The notes beneath the pieces were generated by a model. That model was not told the origin of the DNA, searched no databases, and worked only from the letters and a program-made list of their open reading frames with translations. A program made the translations under genes and the position numbers. Of a stretch of 35,013 bases of DNA, positions 14,882-34,628 are shown one piece after another; position 1 is the stretch's first letter, and each line of letters opens with the position of its first letter. Location of the stretch: positions 1 to 35,013 of IMG/VR virus record IMGVR_UViG_2534681831_000020; one strand, 5' to 3'. Source of the DNA: a virus (Duplodnaviria > Heunggongvirae > Uroviricota > Caudoviricetes).

Positions 14882-15415
14882 TTATCTGTCAATTCCCCAG
14901 CACGCCAGCGCGCTCTCCTGGTCACGCCGTGAGACCTGACCGTAGCAGTTGTTTGAGCGAATACGGCAGTCTCTGCCGCCGTCCTTAATCCACCAGCGAA
15001 TCGCTTCGCAGGCTCCCCTGCGGTCACCTGCATTAATCCGTCTGTAAAACGTCGACGGGAAACACTTACCGGGGCCAATGTTGTACGGACAGAATGACGC
15101 AATCCCCGCTTTCTGGGGTTCGGTCAGTGGCACTCTGATGTTTTTCTCCACCCATGCCAGCGCCTTATCACGTTCAATGGCGTTAACCTGGTCGCATTTT
15201 TCCTTCGACAGCTTCATGCCAGGAATCACAGGCTTACCATCCACCATGATGGCACCTCGGCAGATGGTCCAGATACCCGCACCATCACGGTATGCCGTGG
15301 TGTGGTTACCTTCCTTTTCATCCAGAAACTGGTCGAGAATGTCAGGCGCAGGCGCACCAGCGGCAATCAGCGCCAGAACGGCAGCCGACAGGCCGTATTT
15401 GATTTTGGTGTTCAT
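14882..15415 (-). CDS. R: endolysin (phage lysozyme) with N-terminal signal-anchor-release (SAR) segment
   Basis: 177 aa; N-terminal weakly hydrophobic, Ala/Gly-rich stretch LSAAVLALIAAGAPAP typical of SAR endolysins, followed by a lysozyme-like body; lies between holin and Rz. Confidence 0.8.
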   Translation of the reverse strand: MNTKIKYGLSAAVLALIAAGAPAPDILDQFLDEKEGNHTTAYRDGAGIWTICRGAIMVDGKPVIPGMKLSKEKCDQVNAIERDKALAWVEKNIRVPLTEPQKAGIASFCPYNIGPGKCFPSTFYRRINAGDRRGACEAIRWWIKDGGRDCRIRSNNCYGQVSRRDQESALACWGIDR

Positions 15416-28165: not shown

Positions 28166-28321
28166 TTACTTCTCAGATTCGTAGTCTACGAAGACAGCGA
28201 CCTCCGTCTGACCGGTTCGGATTCGCACCTCGCAGAGGTCTTTCCTCGTTACCAGTGCCGTCACTATGACGGTTAAACAGATGACGATCAGGGCGATTAA
28301 CATCGCCTTTTGCTGCTTCAT
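28166..28321 (-). CDS. hok: Hok/Gef-family type I toxin (51 aa)
   Basis: MKQQKAMLIALIVICLTVIVTALVTRKDLCEVRIRTGQTEVAVF..., near-identical over most of its length to HokD/RelF as I recall it; an upstream in-frame extension (track ORF start 28378) is Mok-like. Confidence 0.8.
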   Translation of the reverse strand: MKQQKAMLIALIVICLTVIVTALVTRKDLCEVRIRTGQTEVAVFVDYESEK

Positions 28322-28611
28322 AGCCTGCTTCTCCTTGCCTTTCGGCACGTAAGAGGCTAACCTACATGTGTTCAGCATGGATTGAGCCTCAGATTAATGT
28401 TAAGCGTCTTGCAGGACGCGTAATGTTAACTGGGGCTTTTCTCTATCTGCCGTTGGTGTTCATGCCCGAGGCAGATAGCCTCAAGCACCCGCTGCAATTC
28501 TACTTAACTATCCTTTTCCCGCAAACCGTTTTTATCCCCAGCGGCAAATCGAATACTCCACCAGCGCCACCGCCATCGCAATTCCTACCGTTGTGAATGC
28601 TTCAGGCCAGG

Positions 28612-31849: not shown

Positions 31850-32926
31850 TCACCCCCTGAATCCCGGCGGAATTTCGGTATCCGGTTCAGAAATATGATT
31901 CACACAACGCTGGTTGTTCGTGCCGCTTACCGGGAGCAACCAGGGGTTCTCAAAATTCCGGTCCGGTCCAAAAAACGTCGTCGCTCGCTGAACAAATTCC
32001 GTTCCCGTTTTCCCGGTAGCCGCCAAGTATCTTGCGTAACGCCTCACGCCATCCAGCATGGCCTCTGGTGGCACCCCCTCGCGTAATCTGGCCTTCCAGG
32101 CACTGAAAGCGGATTTCTTCGGGTTTGCCCCAGCACGCAACGGGTATTCCCGCCAGACCTGTTCGAACACATCCGGATAATCCACTCGTCCCACAGGCTG
32201 CCCGGTGTTTTCCGGGACTACCCGATCGGCTTCCCGCTGAATGGCGGAATCGGCTTCAGGCTGCTGCAGTTGGTGTGATTGCTCCGGCCTTGCGGTCATC
32301 ACCTGCTGCACAGCGCCCGAATCGGCTTTCAGCGCATACGCTGAATCGGCTTCCGGTGTCGTGCCTGCTGGCTGACCAGGATTGACGGTCTGAACATCCC
32401 CTGCCTGGTTCGTGGCGTTTTTTACGCCATGGACCATAGTGTTTTGATCTTCTTGATCTGTATCTTTATCTGTATCTTTATCTGTCGTGACTCGTCGTGA
32501 CATGTGCGTGACATTTCGTGACGCGCCGTGACAATCGCCATTTTGTTCCCGCTTTCTTTCCCTCTCTCGCTGCGCCCTCTTGCGCTCTGCAGGAGATTTT
32601 GCGGTTTGCGAAATATTGCCGTTGTCCTCTTTAAGCACCTGGCGTTTTTCCCATCCAGTGATTAAATCACCATCAAGTACCCGCCCCTGCATCGTCTGCA
32701 AAATTGAATCAATTACCTCTTCTGTCACGTCGAGCGCACTTGCCAAATCTTCTGTCGTGACATCAATGTGACCTCGCGTGACATTTCGTGACGCGCTCAC
32801 CAGGAGGTGGATATACACTGCCATCACTGTTGCAATTGGCTGCCCTGACACCCTGGCAATTGTTCGCCACTTAGGGTCATTTGGCATGTCATGCCATAAT
32901 CTGAGCCAGGCGTTAGCCATACTCAC
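31850..32926 (-). CDS. replication initiator protein (functional analogue of lambda O) containing the origin iterons
   Basis: 358 aa; N-terminal DNA-binding-like domain, low-complexity DKDTDKDTD linker encoded by an AT-rich tract, and two clusters of CGTGAC iterons inside the gene; directly upstream of the DnaC-like gene. Confidence 0.6.
   Translation of the reverse strand: MSMANAWLRLWHDMPNDPKWRTIARVSGQPIATVMAVYIHLLVSASRNVTRGHIDVTTEDLASALDVTEEVIDSILQTMQGRVLDGDLITGWEKRQVLKEDNGNISQTAKSPAERKRAQRERERKREQNGDCHGASRNVTHMSRRVTTDKDTDKDTDQEDQNTMVHGVKNATNQAGDVQTVNPGQPAGTTPEADSAYALKADSGAVQQVMTARPEQSHQLQQPEADSAIQREADRVVPENTGQPVGRVDYPDVFEQVWREYPLRAGANPKKSAFSAWKARLREGVPPEAMLDGVRRYARYLAATGKTGTEFVQRATTFFGPDRNFENPWLLPVSGTNNQRCVNHISEPDTEIPPGFRG
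32440..32815. repeat. candidate origin of replication: AT-rich tract plus two clusters of (T/G/C)CGTGAC iterons
   Basis: Five CGTGAC copies at about 10-bp spacing (32485..32532), four more and one inverted copy (32744..32812), the 18-mer cgtgacatttcgtgacgcgc present in both clusters, and an adjacent tatctttatctgtatctttatctg AT-rich tract. Confidence 0.5.
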
Positions 32927-33032
32927 CTCTTCTGATACCGAATCTTTTTACTCACGAGTTGCCGGAAGCGATTCGATACGGCTATTGTCAGTCAATGTAC
33001 TGCCACAGCATTTCCTGCCGGGCCACCACGGT

Positions 33033-33416
33033 TCATCTGATTGAAACCGGCGATTGCCACTGCGCAAAATCATCAGCGTCTCTCACCAGTCGCTCCCGCG
33101 TCTCCACCAGCTCCCGAAAATAAGCTGAACTGTGGCTGCGCATTCTGGCCACCAGCAAAGGTGGCATTGCCTTTTCGATCGCTGGTAACAACGCCTGAAT
33201 TTTTTCAACTGCATCAGGGGTGTCTTTCTCTACCCAGCGGAAAATTTTCTGGGTATTGCGAGCCAGGGCTTCCGGATGGCTGTCGTCATACAGTTCAGGA
33301 AACGTCATACCCAACTCAAAATAAGCCTGGGTTATTCCAGCTGCTGGAACTTTTTCGCCATCAGGACGCGCCCAGGCATTCATCGCCATGCGGATGTGTT
33401 CATGCTTGATTTTCAT
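33033..33416 (-). CDS. YdaT-like protein (cII-position gene of Rac-type immunity regions)
   Basis: 127-aa ORF immediately downstream of and overlapping the Cro/YdaS-like gene; assigned by position and Rac-like context. Confidence 0.4.
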   Translation of the reverse strand: MKIKHEHIRMAMNAWARPDGEKVPAAGITQAYFELGMTFPELYDDSHPEALARNTQKIFRWVEKDTPDAVEKIQALLPAIEKAMPPLLVARMRSHSSAYFRELVETRERLVRDADDFAQWQSPVSIR

Positions 33417-33681
33417 GAATCAAGCTCCTAGTAAGTGGTTGTGTTAACGTTTTGGTATCTTCCAGCTCGGGCCAAATATTCATCCAATCAAAAGGCCTTA
33501 GTTGCTGACGTGTAACTTCACCATTACTGGCTCGCTCAATAAGGACACATAACGATGCCCCTAACATTTGACCTTTACTCAATGCCTTTCTTAGATAACC
33601 GATGCTAGTACCACACTCACATGCAAACATACGCTGTTCATCTGACGAAAGAGAATTGAGAAATATTCTTAATTCTTCCAT
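33400..33681 (-). CDS. Cro/YdaS-like transcriptional regulator
   Basis: 93 aa, ...CGTSIGYLRKALSKGQMLGASLCVLIERASNGEVTRQQLRPFDW...; AGGAG Shine-Dalgarno 6 nt upstream; divergent from the repressor gene. Confidence 0.6.
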   Translation of the reverse strand: MEELRIFLNSLSSDEQRMFACECGTSIGYLRKALSKGQMLGASLCVLIERASNGEVTRQQLRPFDWMNIWPELEDTKTLTQPLTRSLIHENQA

Positions 33682-33684
33682 AGC

Positions 33685-33780
33685 TACTCCTTAGTAAACA
33701 CAGCAAGAATACCCACAGGTAAACAAAAGTCAATACCCTTGGGTTGTTTACCTTGCGGTAATCGCATCTATTATTTACCT
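33685..33780. promoter_or_regulatory. divergent promoter/operator region between the cro-like and repressor genes
   Basis: Three GTAAACA half-sites (two direct, one inverted, forming GGTAAACAA-N18-TTGTTTACC) and a repeated AATACCC(A/T) motif in the 100-bp intergenic region. Confidence 0.4.
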
Positions 33781-34199
33781 ATGGACAAATATGAATTTAG
33801 ACGACAACAACTCATCAAAATTCGTGATGAGAAATGCGATGGTAAAGCGGTTAACGTGGCCAGAAAGATCGGTCGCGAGCCTTCTTATGTATCAAGAATG
33901 TTGTACCCAGAGGGGAAAAAAGGAAAAAACGGATCGCTGATGATATGGTGGAGATTATAGAAGAGTCCTTTGGGTTACCCCGGGGATGGATGGATGGTAT
34001 CGTTTCATCATCAACGAACACAGCCTCCAATTATGAAACAAGGGTTCTAACGCCACGACAACGTATTTTTTTAGATCTCTTAGACGAACTGCCAGAAAGT
34101 GAAGCGGATAACTTATTAAAAACTCTTGAAGAGAAAAAACAGTATTACAATATGATCTACGAAGAAATCCGTAAAAAGAAAGCACAAAACGCATCATAA
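33781..34199 (+). CDS. DicA/RacR-like prophage repressor; frame interrupted by a 1-nt difference in an A-run (33916..33929)
   Basis: N-terminal HTH (MDKYEFRRQQLIKIRDEKCDGKAVNVARKIGREPSYVSRM, track ORF 33739..33960) continues in the next frame (...KRIADDMVEIIEESFGLPRGWMD...LTPRQRIFLDLLDELPESEADNLLKTLEE, track ORF 33945..34199); the C-terminal LPESE motif resembles DicA. Confidence 0.55.
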
Positions 34200-34383
34200 C
34201 TCACCAAACAACCAGTCACCAGTTAAGACACATCAAAAAATTACCCATGGGTATTTACTTTTTAAATACCCATAGGTATCCTTCCTTTCATACCAACCCA
34301 CCCCGTCCCACAGAACGCAGGGCAATACTTCGAGTTACCAGGCAGTGGTCAGGGGGTAAGTAGCCAGCCCGAGGCGTAAGAAC

Positions 34384-34617
34384 ATGACGGCAGGGTTCAA
34401 CTTTAATAACTATGCAGCAGGTTTTTGTTCCGCTACCCCGGCGTTAAGGGGAAATGAGGTCAGCATGGATACTATCGATCTTGGCAACAGCGAATCTCTG
34501 GTATGCGGCGTGTTTCCCAACCAGGACGGTACGTTTACCGCGATGACGTATACCAAAAGTAAAACGTTTAAAACCGAAGCTGGCGCGCATCGCTGGTTAG
34601 CAAGAAACTCCGACTGA
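34384..34617 (+). CDS. hypothetical small protein (likely shorter; internal start MDTIDLG...)
   Basis: ORF downstream of the repressor on the same strand. Confidence 0.25.
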   Translation: MTAGFNFNNYAAGFCSATPALRGNEVSMDTIDLGNSESLVCGVFPNQDGTFTAMTYTKSKTFKTEAGAHRWLARNSD

Positions 34618-34628
34618 TGAGGTTGACG

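What the first reader, a model, noticed from the sequence alone, without database searches (positions are those of the whole stretch)
33682..34199. Rac-type immunity region with a possibly leaderless repressor gene
The repressor start codon has no Shine-Dalgarno sequence (tattatttacctATG), while the divergent cro-like gene has a strong one. That fits leaderless translation from a maintenance promoter, as for lambda cI from pRM. The operator candidates are GTAAACA half-sites, including a 9-bp inverted repeat with an 18-bp spacer. The gene order repressor, YdaS-like, YdaT-like, initiator, DnaC-like resembles the Rac prophage, where YdaS/YdaT have been described as toxic.
Basis: partly seen in the sequence, partly recalled or inferred. 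Interest (0 to 1): 0.45.

Follow-up and report, generated by a model that had tools for sequence, protein, structure and literature searches.

The report
Prophage immunity switch, leaderless repressor
This is the ordinary on/off switch of a lambda-like prophage in E. coli O111:H8, whose repressor gene very probably starts right at the first base of its mRNA, as in phage lambda and several known cryptic prophages; the apparent break in the gene is most likely a sequencing error.

Summary
The repressor ATG is at 33781, not 33782, and has no Shine-Dalgarno sequence. The divergent cro-like gene has AAGGAG 5 nt before its ATG. The GTAAACA repeats and the 10-bp inverted repeat exist.

The leaderless reading is well supported. 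The only + strand promoter match, TTTACC-16-TATTAT, ends 6 nt before the ATG. That geometry is kept in 20-23 of 26 homologous loci from other species. It is also the geometry of paaR2 in CP-933P, where leaderless translation has been proven experimentally.

Two corrections:
- **Operators.** They are 12-bp palindromes TACC-N4-GGTA, not GTAAACA half-sites. All four perfect copies in the 35-kb window lie here: 33710 and 33749 in OR, 34242 and 34267 in an OL/PL-like site. A conserved variant lies at 33734.
- **Repressor.** It is unrelated to RacR. It joins a widespread CI-type DNA-binding domain to a DicA/PaaR2-type C-terminal domain and has no S24 peptidase domain.

The frame break is a 1-nt loss, A7 to A6. 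It is absent from 821 of 821 RefSeq complete genomes that carry the segment. It is also absent from the closed genome of what appears to be the same strain. It is most likely a homopolymer error in the draft assembly.

Verdict: a new member of a known kind, of low interest.

The parts
32992..33416 (-). YdaT-family gene, the CII equivalent. The window ORF reads 33033..33416 (127 aa) because a 1-nt indel at 33064 changes the C-terminus. The intact relative is 141 aa.
   Evidence: Pfam PF06254 at 39.4 bits against a cut-off of 21, and phrog_163 'CII-like activator'. Very close to PDB 3c4r (E 8e-89) and to PDB 8bt1, the CP-933P YdaT (E 4e-79). The indel is listed.
33406..33423 (.). Perfect TTGATT-N6-AATCAA inverted repeat spanning the ydaT start codon. 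Probable YdaT (OM) operator in a PRE-like region.
   Evidence: It is the only perfect match in the window. The identical 18-mer sits at the same position in Sakai Sp12/CP-933P. That motif is the site footprinted for YdaT (PMC9986795).
33400..33681 (-). Cro-like gene of the YdaS family, 93 aa.
   Evidence: phrog_35 at E 2e-23. Pfam YdaS_toxin scores 25.9 bits, below the cut-off of 30. 36% identical to CP-933P YdaS over 78 aa. PDB chains named 'antirepressor protein Cro' match at E 1.5e-10.
33687..33692 (-). Shine-Dalgarno AAGGAG of the cro-like gene, 5 nt before its ATG.
   Evidence: Read directly from the sequence.
33706..33733 (-). PR-like promoter TTGACT-16-TATTCT. Predicted start near 33699, giving a leader of about 18 nt.
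   Evidence: Promoter scan. The -35 TTGA (TCAA on the + strand) is invariant in 17 aligned loci.
33710..33721 (.). Operator O1, TACCCACAGGTA. It overlaps the PR -10 and is centred at -65.5 from the repressor ATG.
   Evidence: The arms are invariant in 17 loci while the centre varies.
33734..33745 (.). Operator O2, TACCCTTGGGTT, with one arm degenerate. It abuts the PR -35 and is centred at -41.5 from the repressor ATG.
   Evidence: The TACC...GG core is conserved at -47/-48 in most loci.
33749..33760 (.). Operator O3, TACCTTGCGGTA. Its left arm lies inside the PRM-like -35 (TTTACC).
33747..33774 (+). PRM-like promoter TTTACC-16-TATTAT. The -10 ends 6 nt before the ATG, so the predicted start is A33781.
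   Evidence: It is the only + strand promoter match in 33300-34500. The geometry is conserved.
33781..34199 (+). Repressor gene. The intact relative is 139 aa (WP_000362152.1). Here it is split into 33781-33960 and 33945-34199 by A7 to A6 at 33924-33929.
   Evidence: phrog_5736 at E 5e-70. The N-terminal domain is 70-85% identical to S24-type CI repressors. The C-terminal domain resembles DicA. The model has mean pLDDT 85.5.
33924..33929 (+). Homopolymer run carrying the 1-nt deletion that causes the frame break.
34242..34278 (.). OL-like operator pair: TACCCATGGGTA at 34242-34253 and TACCCATAGGTA at 34267-34278, 25 bp apart.
   Evidence: Downstream pairs spaced 25-26 bp recur in 12 of 26 homologous loci. 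The arms are kept in E2348/69 and O157 while the centres vary.
34254..34282 (+). PL-like promoter TTTACT-17-TATCCT for the early-left genes (DUF1391 and others). Its layout relative to its operators matches that of PR.
   Evidence: Read from the sequence. It matches 8 of 12 consensus positions, so it fell below the scan threshold. Its -10 aligns with the Rac TTGACA-17-TATAGT promoter, just before the shared leader.

Best explanation
Window 33400-34290 is the lysis-lysogeny (immunity) switch of a lambda-like prophage of E. coli O111:H8 strain DEC8B.

Layout. The 99-bp region between the repressor gene and the divergent cro-like gene holds two back-to-back sigma-70 promoters.
- The PR-like promoter (- strand) makes a leadered, SD-bearing mRNA for cro-like YdaS, YdaT (the CII equivalent) and the replication genes.
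- The PRM-like promoter (+ strand) has its -10 (TATTAT) ending 6 nt before the repressor ATG. Transcription should therefore begin at the A of AUG, and the mRNA would be translated without a leader or SD.

Operators. The repressor recognises 12-bp palindromes TACC-N4-GGTA.
- O1 and O2 cover the PR -10 and -35, so binding there should shut off PR.
- O2 is centred at -41.5 from the PRM start and could activate PRM.
- O3 lies on the PRM -35 and should give negative autoregulation.
- A second operator pair, 43 bp after the repressor stop codon, overlaps a PL-like promoter for the early-left genes.

The protein. It combines an XRE/CI-type helix-turn-helix domain with a DicA/PaaR2-type helical C-terminal domain, which is presumably for oligomerisation. 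It lacks the S24 self-cleavage domain, so induction cannot run through RecA-stimulated autocleavage.

Shown here: the sequence features, their statistics, their conservation and the homologies. Inferred: the transcription start, which site is occupied when, activation, looping and the route of induction.

The frame break in this window is most likely a homopolymer error in the draft assembly.
For: Promoters: the only two promoter matches in 33300-34500 are the divergent pair, and the + strand -10 ends 6 nt before the ATG.

Conservation of the leaderless layout: the GTDB species set gave 26 homologous loci. In 23 of them a -10-like hexamer lies 6-7 nt before the ATG. In 20 that hexamer comes with no SD-like tetramer, against 6 of 107 control ORFs in the same loci (Fisher p = 1e-13; the loci are not independent). 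More than 10 different hexamer sequences keep A2 and T6.

Precedents:
- PaaR2 of CP-933P is a distant homologue (23% identity over 90 aa, E 9e-9). It has GATAAT, then 6 nt, then ATG. It was shown to be leaderless by 5' RACE, N-terminal sequencing and mass spectrometry (PMC8630535).
- dicA, racR and ymfK mRNAs are leaderless in K-12 (PMC4681348; PMC9638921).

Operators:
- TACC-N4-GGTA has 4 perfect copies in 35 kb, all between 33710 and 34278, against 0.14 expected.
- The arms are invariant and the centres variable in 17 aligned loci.
- The sites sit at fixed offsets of -72/-73, -47/-48 and -32/-33 from the ATG. Downstream pairs are spaced 25-26 bp.

Protein:
- The DNA-binding domain is shared with S24-type CI repressors.
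- The C-terminal domain matches DicA.
- The best fold matches are the SPC32H Rep repressor and XRE-family HTH proteins.

Frame break:
- None of 821 RefSeq complete genomes carrying the segment has the A6 allele.
- The ORF is intact in strain 8B, in O111 strain 11128, in E2348/69 and in O157:H7.
- The window differs from the closed 8B genome by 18 single-base indels, mostly in homopolymers.
Against: - No transcript data were available, so the transcription start is a prediction.
- The number of promoter-like matches in the region (2) is no higher than in shuffled sequence (2.6). The argument rests on position and conservation, not on the count.
- The -35 is weak: TTTACC matches 4 of 6 consensus positions.
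- One homologous locus (Orbus, L027) has an SD instead of the -10 layout.
- RacR uses three promoters, only one of them leaderless. Additional leadered transcripts, including one from a PRE-like promoter near 33406-33423, are therefore likely here too.
- The A6 allele recurs in other assemblies, some in diverged backgrounds. A real slippage mutation in DEC8B cannot be excluded.
- That strain '8B' is DEC8B is inferred from its name, its serotype and 99.92% identity over 35 kb.
Confidence: 0.8

Rival explanations
1. The repressor is made only from leadered transcripts that start upstream, for example from a YdaT-activated PRE-like promoter at the ydaS/ydaT junction or from a start inside the intergenic region. 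Translation would then use SD-independent internal initiation, and the -10-like hexamer next to the ATG would be incidental.
For: A YdaT site identical to the footprinted CP-933P OM site lies 360 nt upstream. A PRE933P promoter feeding paaR2 has been described. RacR has additional leadered promoters.
Against: The -10 / 6-7 nt / ATG geometry is conserved across genera while the hexamer sequence drifts, which indicates selection on a promoter at that spot. The homologous paaR2 layout yields a mapped leaderless transcript. Establishment and maintenance promoters coexist in lambda, so a PRE-like transcript does not exclude the leaderless one.
Confidence: 0.1
2. The frame break is real in strain DEC8B. 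On this view the repressor is a pseudogene, and the prophage is kept silent by other defects or by another repressor.
For: The window reads A6. A7 runs are slippage hot spots. A6 and other run-length variants occur in other assemblies, including diverged backgrounds and one 5.3-Mb GenBank genome. Other frameshifted products were seen in the protein search.
Against: None of 821 RefSeq complete genomes has the allele. The closed genome of O111:H8 strain 8B, 99.92% identical over the whole window, has A7. The window carries 17 further single-base indels relative to that genome, typical of homopolymer miscalls. Loss of this repressor should derepress YdaS/YdaT, which is reported to be lethal in Rac (PMC5700373, abstract).
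Confidence: 0.15
3. The operators are GTAAACA half-sites. They would be bound as a long-spaced inverted repeat (10 bp arms, 17-nt spacer) plus flanking direct repeats.
For: Three exact copies and one near copy lie within 86 bp, and the inverted repeat is perfect over 10 bp. In CP-933P both direct and inverted repeats were discussed.
Against: The AACA extension is not conserved in homologous loci, whereas TACC and GGTA are invariant. The OL-like sites carry TACC-N4-GGTA without GTAAACA. GTAAACA is only weakly enriched in the window. A 12-bp palindrome fits one HTH dimer, whereas half-sites 27 bp apart do not.
Confidence: 0.07
4. The A6 allele is expressed by -1 ribosomal frameshifting on the in-frame heptamer A_AAA_AAC (33924-33930), or by transcriptional slippage, giving full-length repressor at a low level.
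For: In the zero frame the heptamer reads GG[A AAA AAC]. A -1 shift there restores the C-terminal frame with a single K-to-N change.
Against: The intact allele is A7 in every good genome, so the heptamer is a by-product of the deletion. No stimulatory structure was looked for or seen. A_AAA_AAC is a weak shifter in E. coli (own knowledge).
Confidence: 0.02

Closest known systems
CP-933P / Sp12 immunity region of E. coli O157:H7 (PaaR2-YdaS-YdaT; PMC8630535, PMC9986795)
   Same: - The repressor and the cro-like gene diverge across a region of about 97-99 bp with PR- and PRM-like promoters.
- A -10 hexamer is followed by 6 nt and then the ATG, and the paaR2 mRNA is proven leaderless.
- An OL/PL-like site lies downstream of the repressor.
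- YdaT is very close to the CP-933P protein (PDB 8bt1, E 4e-79), and the TTGATTTTCATGAATCAA operator lies at the ydaT start in both.
- The repressor C-terminal domain is of the same type as in PaaR2.
   Different: - The repressor is only 23% identical to PaaR2 over 90 aa.
- The operators differ: TACC-N4-GGTA here, a GTTTAGTAA-type repeat there.
- No paaA2-parE2 toxin-antitoxin genes follow the repressor; a DUF1391 gene follows after the PL-like site.
- YdaS is only 36% identical.
Phage lambda cI / OR / PRM-PR / OL-PL
   Same: - Back-to-back promoters, with the repressor mRNA starting at the AUG.
- Three operators in OR. The first two are 24 bp apart, and the middle one is centred about -42 from the maintenance promoter start.
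- A second operator set lies at PL.
- The predicted start sites are 82 bp apart, as in lambda.
The lambda figures are from my own knowledge.
   Different: [quoted passage not shown]
- The operators are 12 bp rather than 17 bp.
- O3 lies 15 bp from O2 rather than 23 bp.
- There is no S24 autocleavage domain.
- OL has two sites, not three, and lies only about 525 bp from OR.
Rac prophage racR-ydaS-ydaT (E. coli K-12)
   Same: - Same gene order.
- Same YdaT and YdaS families: 35% identity over 111 aa and 39% over 44 aa.
- Rac also carries operator-like repeats on both sides of racR.
- racR has a leaderless promoter.
- The roughly 105-bp leader after PL is shared.
   Different: - The repressor is unrelated to RacR (E = 2.3).
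- The operators differ: ATTAGGC-type in Rac.
- The replication initiator belongs to a different family: phrog_3729 here, DUF1376 YdaU in Rac.
DicA of the Qin prophage
   Same: The C-terminal helical domain is shared (33% identity over 46 aa, E 1e-7; NCBIfam NF007257 matches the C-terminal part). The position next to DUF1391/ydfA-type genes is the same. The dicA mRNA is leaderless.
   Different: The N-terminal DNA-binding domain is not similar. The whole protein scores far below the DicA family cut-off, 24 bits against 101.
S24/LexA-family CI repressors with an MDKYE N-terminus (Salmonella, Edwardsiella, Pantoea, Klebsiella and others; phage mEp043 cI)
   Same: The DNA-binding domain is 65-85% identical. 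These loci have the same TACC-N4-GGTA operators at the same offsets, and the same -10-to-ATG geometry.
   Different: They carry an S24 peptidase domain (PF00717) and are 217-242 aa long. The protein here is 139 aa and has a DicA-type domain instead.
Rep repressor of Salmonella phage SPC32H (PDB 5d50, Rep-Ant complex)
   Same: It is the best structural match to the predicted model (Foldseek E 1e-3, probability 1.0). It has two domains and no peptidase domain. Its PDB entry is a repressor-antirepressor complex.
   Different: Only 17-22% identity and a low TM-score (0.44-0.48). No antirepressor gene is annotated in the corresponding stretch of the closed strain 8B genome.

Membership tests
Lambdoid CI/Cro immunity switch | Divergent repressor and cro-like genes separated by a short region holding back-to-back promoters | tested here: met
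   A 99-bp region with one promoter match on each strand.
Lambdoid CI/Cro immunity switch | Several related palindromic operators overlapping both promoters, and a second set at a PL-type promoter | tested here: met
   TACC-N4-GGTA at 33710, 33734 (variant), 33749, 34242 and 34267. Four perfect copies against 0.14 expected. Conserved positions in homologous loci. Binding itself was not tested.
Lambdoid CI/Cro immunity switch | The repressor carries an S24 (LexA-like) autocleavage domain | tested here: not met
   No Pfam hit. The alignment shows a DicA-type C-terminal domain in place of PF00717.
Leaderless mRNA (lambda cI type) | Transcription starts at, or within a few nt of, the A of the start codon | not testable with these tools
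   Only predicted: the -10 TATTAT ends 6 nt before the ATG. 5' RACE or dRNA-seq is needed.
Leaderless mRNA (lambda cI type) | No Shine-Dalgarno sequence, and a promoter -10 in the place where an SD would lie, conserved among homologues | tested here: met
   20 of 26 loci against 6 of 107 control ORFs.
Rac-type immunity region (RacR-YdaS-YdaT) | A repressor homologous to RacR | tested here: not met
   BLASTP E = 2.3.
Rac-type immunity region (RacR-YdaS-YdaT) | A YdaT-family protein (PF06254) after the cro-like gene | tested here: met
   39.4 bits against a cut-off of 21; 35% identical to K-12 YdaT.
Rac-type immunity region (RacR-YdaS-YdaT) | A YdaS-family protein (PF15943) | tested here: inconclusive
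   25.9 bits, below the cut-off of 30. 39% identical over 44 aa to K-12 YdaS. RefSeq names it a YdaS family HTH protein in some genomes.
CP-933P type (PaaR2-PaaA2-ParE2 / YdaS-YdaT) | A PaaR2-like repressor followed by the paaA2-parE2 toxin-antitoxin genes | tested here: not met
   The repressor is a distant homologue only. No toxin-antitoxin genes follow it.
CP-933P type (PaaR2-PaaA2-ParE2 / YdaS-YdaT) | YdaT with the TTGATT-N6-AATCAA operator at the ydaS/ydaT junction | tested here: met
DicA family (NCBIfam NF007257) | A full-length match above the curated cut-off | tested here: not met
   24.1 bits against 101. Only residues 84-136 match.
XRE/CI-type helix-turn-helix DNA-binding domain | A five-helix HTH fold in the N-terminal domain | tested here: met
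   In the AlphaFold model, pLDDT is above 90 for residues 1-70, with helices at 3-18, 23-30, 34-40 and 54-63. Foldseek matches C.Esp1396I, HigA, the lambda cI N-terminal domain and TP901-1 CI at probability 0.9-1.0 but with weak E-values. There is no Pfam HTH hit.

The most novel reading that the evidence does not exclude
The A-runs in the repressor gene (GGGGAAAAAAGGAAAAAAA) could be a genuinely slippage-prone tract. On this reading the recurrent A7-to-A6 and related run-length alleles, seen in several assemblies and sequence backgrounds, are real. They would give heritable, reversible loss of the repressor and hence stochastic derepression of the prophage. The loss might be partly buffered by -1 frameshifting on the A_AAA_AAC heptamer that the deletion creates.
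Probability: 0.05. Interest if true: 0.55.

Novelty: new member of a known kind. Interest (0 to 1): 0.2.

Why it matters
About 15% of complete E. coli genomes (821 of 5426) carry this immunity type, including O111, O157:H7, O145, EPEC E2348/69 and ST131 strains. As far as I could find, its repressor and operators have not been characterised. RefSeq calls the repressor a 'hypothetical protein', and Pfam has no model for it.

The analysis gives a concrete and testable operator (TACC-N4-GGTA), a promoter map and a predicted leaderless start. It adds one more case to the known rule that prophage repressors in E. coli are translated from leaderless mRNAs.

It also shows one DNA-binding domain and operator set paired with two different C-terminal modules, S24 peptidase or DicA-type. 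Phages of the same immunity could therefore differ in how they are induced.

None of this is surprising to a phage specialist. The value lies in annotation rather than in new concepts.

Tried and rejected
- Pfam and PDB sequence searches of the repressor gave nothing usable. The only PDB hits were weak matches to ADAR1 Z-alpha domains (E 0.08), which I take to be chance.
- Rfam found no RNA family in 33000-35013.
- The conserved leader after PL does not fold better than shuffled sequence (z = -0.45).
- No sequenced phage in the INPHARED set carries this immunity region. The only hits were partial matches to flanking DNA.
- I first took the single-contig record of the 59-aa truncated product as evidence that A6 is unique to this window. 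I withdrew that after look-up of encoding contigs showed A6 in other assemblies where the short ORF had simply not been called.
- Two further candidate operator sites, 33685 (TACTCCTTAGTA) and 33776 (TACCTATGGACA), each have two mismatches and are not conserved in the alignment. I dropped them.
- The count of promoter-like sites is not above chance, so I do not use it as evidence by itself.
- I did not scan the window ORFs for an antirepressor. The RefSeq annotation of the matching stretch of strain 8B names none.
Full report
**What is in the sequence.**
The window is the 35,013-bp contig of E. coli DEC8B. The exact 59-aa truncated product is GenBank EHW12123.1, recorded on a contig of exactly this length. 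The region of the finding contains the following.
- A + strand ORF starts at ATG 33781. The finding's start is one base off.
- A divergent 93-aa gene lies on the - strand at 33681..33400.
- Further genes follow on the - strand: a YdaT-family gene, a replication initiator (phrog_3729), a DnaC-like loader (IstB/phrog_50) and a DUF1627 gene.
- The repressor ATG is preceded by tattatttacct, with no SD-like tetramer.
- The cro-like gene has AAGGAG 5 nt before its ATG.
- The GTAAACA repeats are real, and so is the inverted repeat, which is 10 bp with a 17-nt spacer.

**The frame break.**
The repressor ORF is interrupted because the second A-run, 33924-33929, is A6.
- Near-identical relatives have A7 and an intact 139-aa ORF, WP_000362152.1. 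The 529-nt alignment has no other difference.
- 821 RefSeq complete E. coli genomes carry the 80-nt segment, and none is identical to the window allele.
- 95 of them are identical to the A7 allele. The rest differ from it by about two substitutions, and the ORF is intact in the two I examined, E2348/69 and O157:H7 Z1504.
- The closed genome of O111:H8 'strain 8B' matches the whole window at 99.92%. It differs at 28 positions, and 18 of these are single-base indels, mostly in homopolymer runs. They include this one and another at 33064 that truncates the YdaT-like ORF. I infer from name, serotype and identity that 8B is DEC8B.
- One complication remains. The same A6 allele, and other run-length variants, occur in other assemblies, some in diverged backgrounds. 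Either the run is a recurrent sequencing-error site or it is a real slippage hot spot.
- Given the 0 of 821 result and the closed genome of the apparently same strain, I put about 0.8 on an artefact for this window.

**The promoters and the leaderless start.**
In 33300-34500 the consensus scan finds exactly two promoter-like sites.
- On the + strand, TTTACC-16-TATTAT lies at 33747-33774.
- On the - strand, TTGACT-16-TATTCT lies at 33733-33706.

The count is not above chance, but the positions are telling. The + strand -10 ends 6 nt before the ATG, which puts the expected start at A33781.

To test this I collected 26 loci encoding homologues of the repressor from different species. They span Yersinia, Edwardsiella, Klebsiella, Pantoea, Brenneria, Aeromonas and others, and include two betaproteobacterial genomes (Ferrovum and a Hydrogenophilaceae MAG).
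- In 23 of 26 a -10-like hexamer (A at position 2, T at position 6) lies 6-7 nt before the ATG.
- In 20 of 26 that hexamer comes with no SD-like tetramer between -16 and -4. The figure for control ORFs in the same loci is 6 of 107 (Fisher p = 1e-13, inflated by relatedness).
- The hexamer sequence itself drifts: TATTAT, TAGAAT, TAGACT, TAAACT, TATGAT, TAAAAT, GATACT and more. That is the pattern expected for a promoter element under selection.

The closest characterised relative is PaaR2 of CP-933P/Sp12, at 23% identity over 90 aa (E 9e-9). It has GATAAT, then 6 nt, then ATG. Its mRNA was shown to be leaderless by 5' RACE, N-terminal sequencing and mass spectrometry (PMC8630535). Leaderless mRNAs are also documented for dicA, racR and ymfK in K-12 (PMC4681348) and for a racR promoter (PMC9638921).

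**The operators.**
The unit that stands out is the 12-bp palindrome TACC-N4-GGTA.
- It has four perfect copies in the whole 35-kb window, all at 33710, 33749, 34242 and 34267. The expectation is 0.14, and no shuffle out of 100 reached 4.
- A one-mismatch copy lies at 33734.
- In an alignment of 17 homologous upstream regions the TACC and GGTA arms are invariant and the four central bases vary. The AACA extension that makes up 'GTAAACA' is not conserved.
- The sites sit at fixed offsets from the ATG: -72/-73, -47/-48 and -32/-33.
- A pair spaced 25-26 bp recurs downstream of the repressor gene in 12 of the 26 loci. This holds whether the repressor is the short form or the S24 form.

In the window, O1 overlaps the PR -10 and O2 abuts the PR -35. 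O2 is centred at -41.5 from the predicted PRM start, and O3 carries the PRM -35.

The downstream pair at 34242-34278 overlaps TTTACT-17-TATCCT. This element has the same operator-promoter layout as PR. Its -10 aligns with that of the Rac promoter TTGACA-17-TATAGT, immediately before a leader shared by heteroimmune prophages. That makes it an OL/PL equivalent, about 525 bp from OR.

Site occupancy, activation of PRM through O2, autorepression through O3 and any OL-OR looping are inferences. They rest on analogy with lambda (own knowledge) and with CP-933P.

**The proteins.**
- The repressor has no Pfam hit and is not similar to RacR (E = 2.3).
- Residues 1-75 are 65-85% identical to the N-terminal domain of S24/LexA-family CI repressors of 217-242 aa from many Enterobacterales, and to the cI of phage mEp043.
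- Residues 84-136 match the C-terminal part of DicA (NCBIfam E 2.5e-5; BLASTP 33% over 46 aa) and of PaaR2.
- An AlphaFold model (mean pLDDT 85.5) shows a helical HTH domain, a disordered linker at 76-87 and a helical C-terminal hairpin.
- The best structural matches are the antirepressor-controlled Rep of phage SPC32H and XRE-family HTH proteins, all with weak E-values.
- The protein lacks the self-cleavage domain, so the route of induction is unknown. An antirepressor is a reasonable guess, not a result.
- YdaT here is very close to the CP-933P protein whose structure and operator are known (PDB 8bt1, E 4e-79). The identical operator, TTGATTTTCATGAATCAA, spans the ydaT start codon in both.
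- The cro-like protein is 36% identical to CP-933P YdaS and 39% identical, over 44 aa, to K-12 YdaS.

**Comparison and verdict.**
This is a lambdoid immunity switch built like those of lambda, Rac, Qin and, most closely, CP-933P. Its right arm is mosaic: YdaT is of the CP-933P type. Its repressor and operator specificity have not been described as far as I could find, yet they are present in about 15% of complete E. coli genomes.

'Rac-type' is acceptable for the gene order, but wrong for the repressor. The leaderless reading is probably right, but expected for this class of gene. The operator assignment is corrected. The frame break is most likely a draft-assembly error. The finding is a new member of a known kind and of low interest.

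Noticed in passing
window 33406-33423: A perfect TTGATT-N6-AATCAA palindrome spans the ydaT start codon. It is identical to the footprinted YdaT OM operator of CP-933P and lies at the same position as in Sakai Sp12. It suggests a PRE-like, YdaT-controlled promoter that reads towards the repressor.
   Followed up: partly
window 34296-34400: A stretch of about 105 bp just after the PL-like -10 is almost invariant between three heteroimmune prophages: this one, Rac of K-12 and Sakai Sp11. The immunity regions next to it are unrelated. It has no Rfam match and no significant fold. Its role is unknown; it could be the leader of the DUF1391 gene or a nut-like site.
   Followed up: partly
window 33064, and 17 other positions across the window: The window differs from the closed genome of strain 8B by 18 single-base indels, mostly in homopolymers. 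The indel at 33064 changes the C-terminus of the YdaT-like ORF (127 aa against 141 aa). ORF calls anywhere in this contig should be treated with caution.
   Followed up: yes
window 14978-15029 and 31949-32057: Two clusters of 4-5 substitutions within 50-110 bp separate the window from the closed 8B genome. One is in the lysozyme region and one in the replication initiator gene. This may reflect reads from paralogous lambdoid prophages being merged in the draft consensus.
   Followed up: no
window 33916-33929; loci L036-L045: Run-length variants of the GGGG-A6-GG-A7 tract in the repressor gene recur in other assemblies: A6/A6, A5-GGG-A6 and A5-GG-A6. One of them is a 5.3-Mb GenBank genome (CP042981.1). 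None appears in RefSeq complete genomes.
   Followed up: partly
window 34242-34278: The two OL-like palindromes together form a 16-bp hairpin. On the - strand it is followed by ATTTTTTGAT and scores as an intrinsic terminator. It might also stop read-through into or out of the repressor gene.
   Followed up: no
loci L004-L029 (homologous loci): The same DNA-binding domain and operator set is found with two different C-terminal modules: S24 peptidase in most genera, and the DicA-type helical domain in E. coli, Salmonella, Yersinia, Serratia and Arsenophonus. In several species the annotated start lies upstream, inside the predicted -10 (for example MMSDMDKYE in Pantoea), which is probably a mis-called start.
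   Followed up: partly
window 21195-21311, 28316-28490, 18975-19147, 23776-24024: Rfam matches elsewhere in the window: the ALIL pseudoknot (IS3-family frameshift signal), the sok antitoxin RNA next to a hok-type gene, the sRNA STnc100, and three tRNA genes upstream of the late region.
   Followed up: no
L033 3556-4937 (Sakai Sp11): Sakai Sp11 has the same flanking genes as this prophage (DUF1391-type gene, 639-nt ORF, DUF1627 gene). It has a third, different repressor/cro pair at the same position, which illustrates module exchange at this locus.
   Followed up: no
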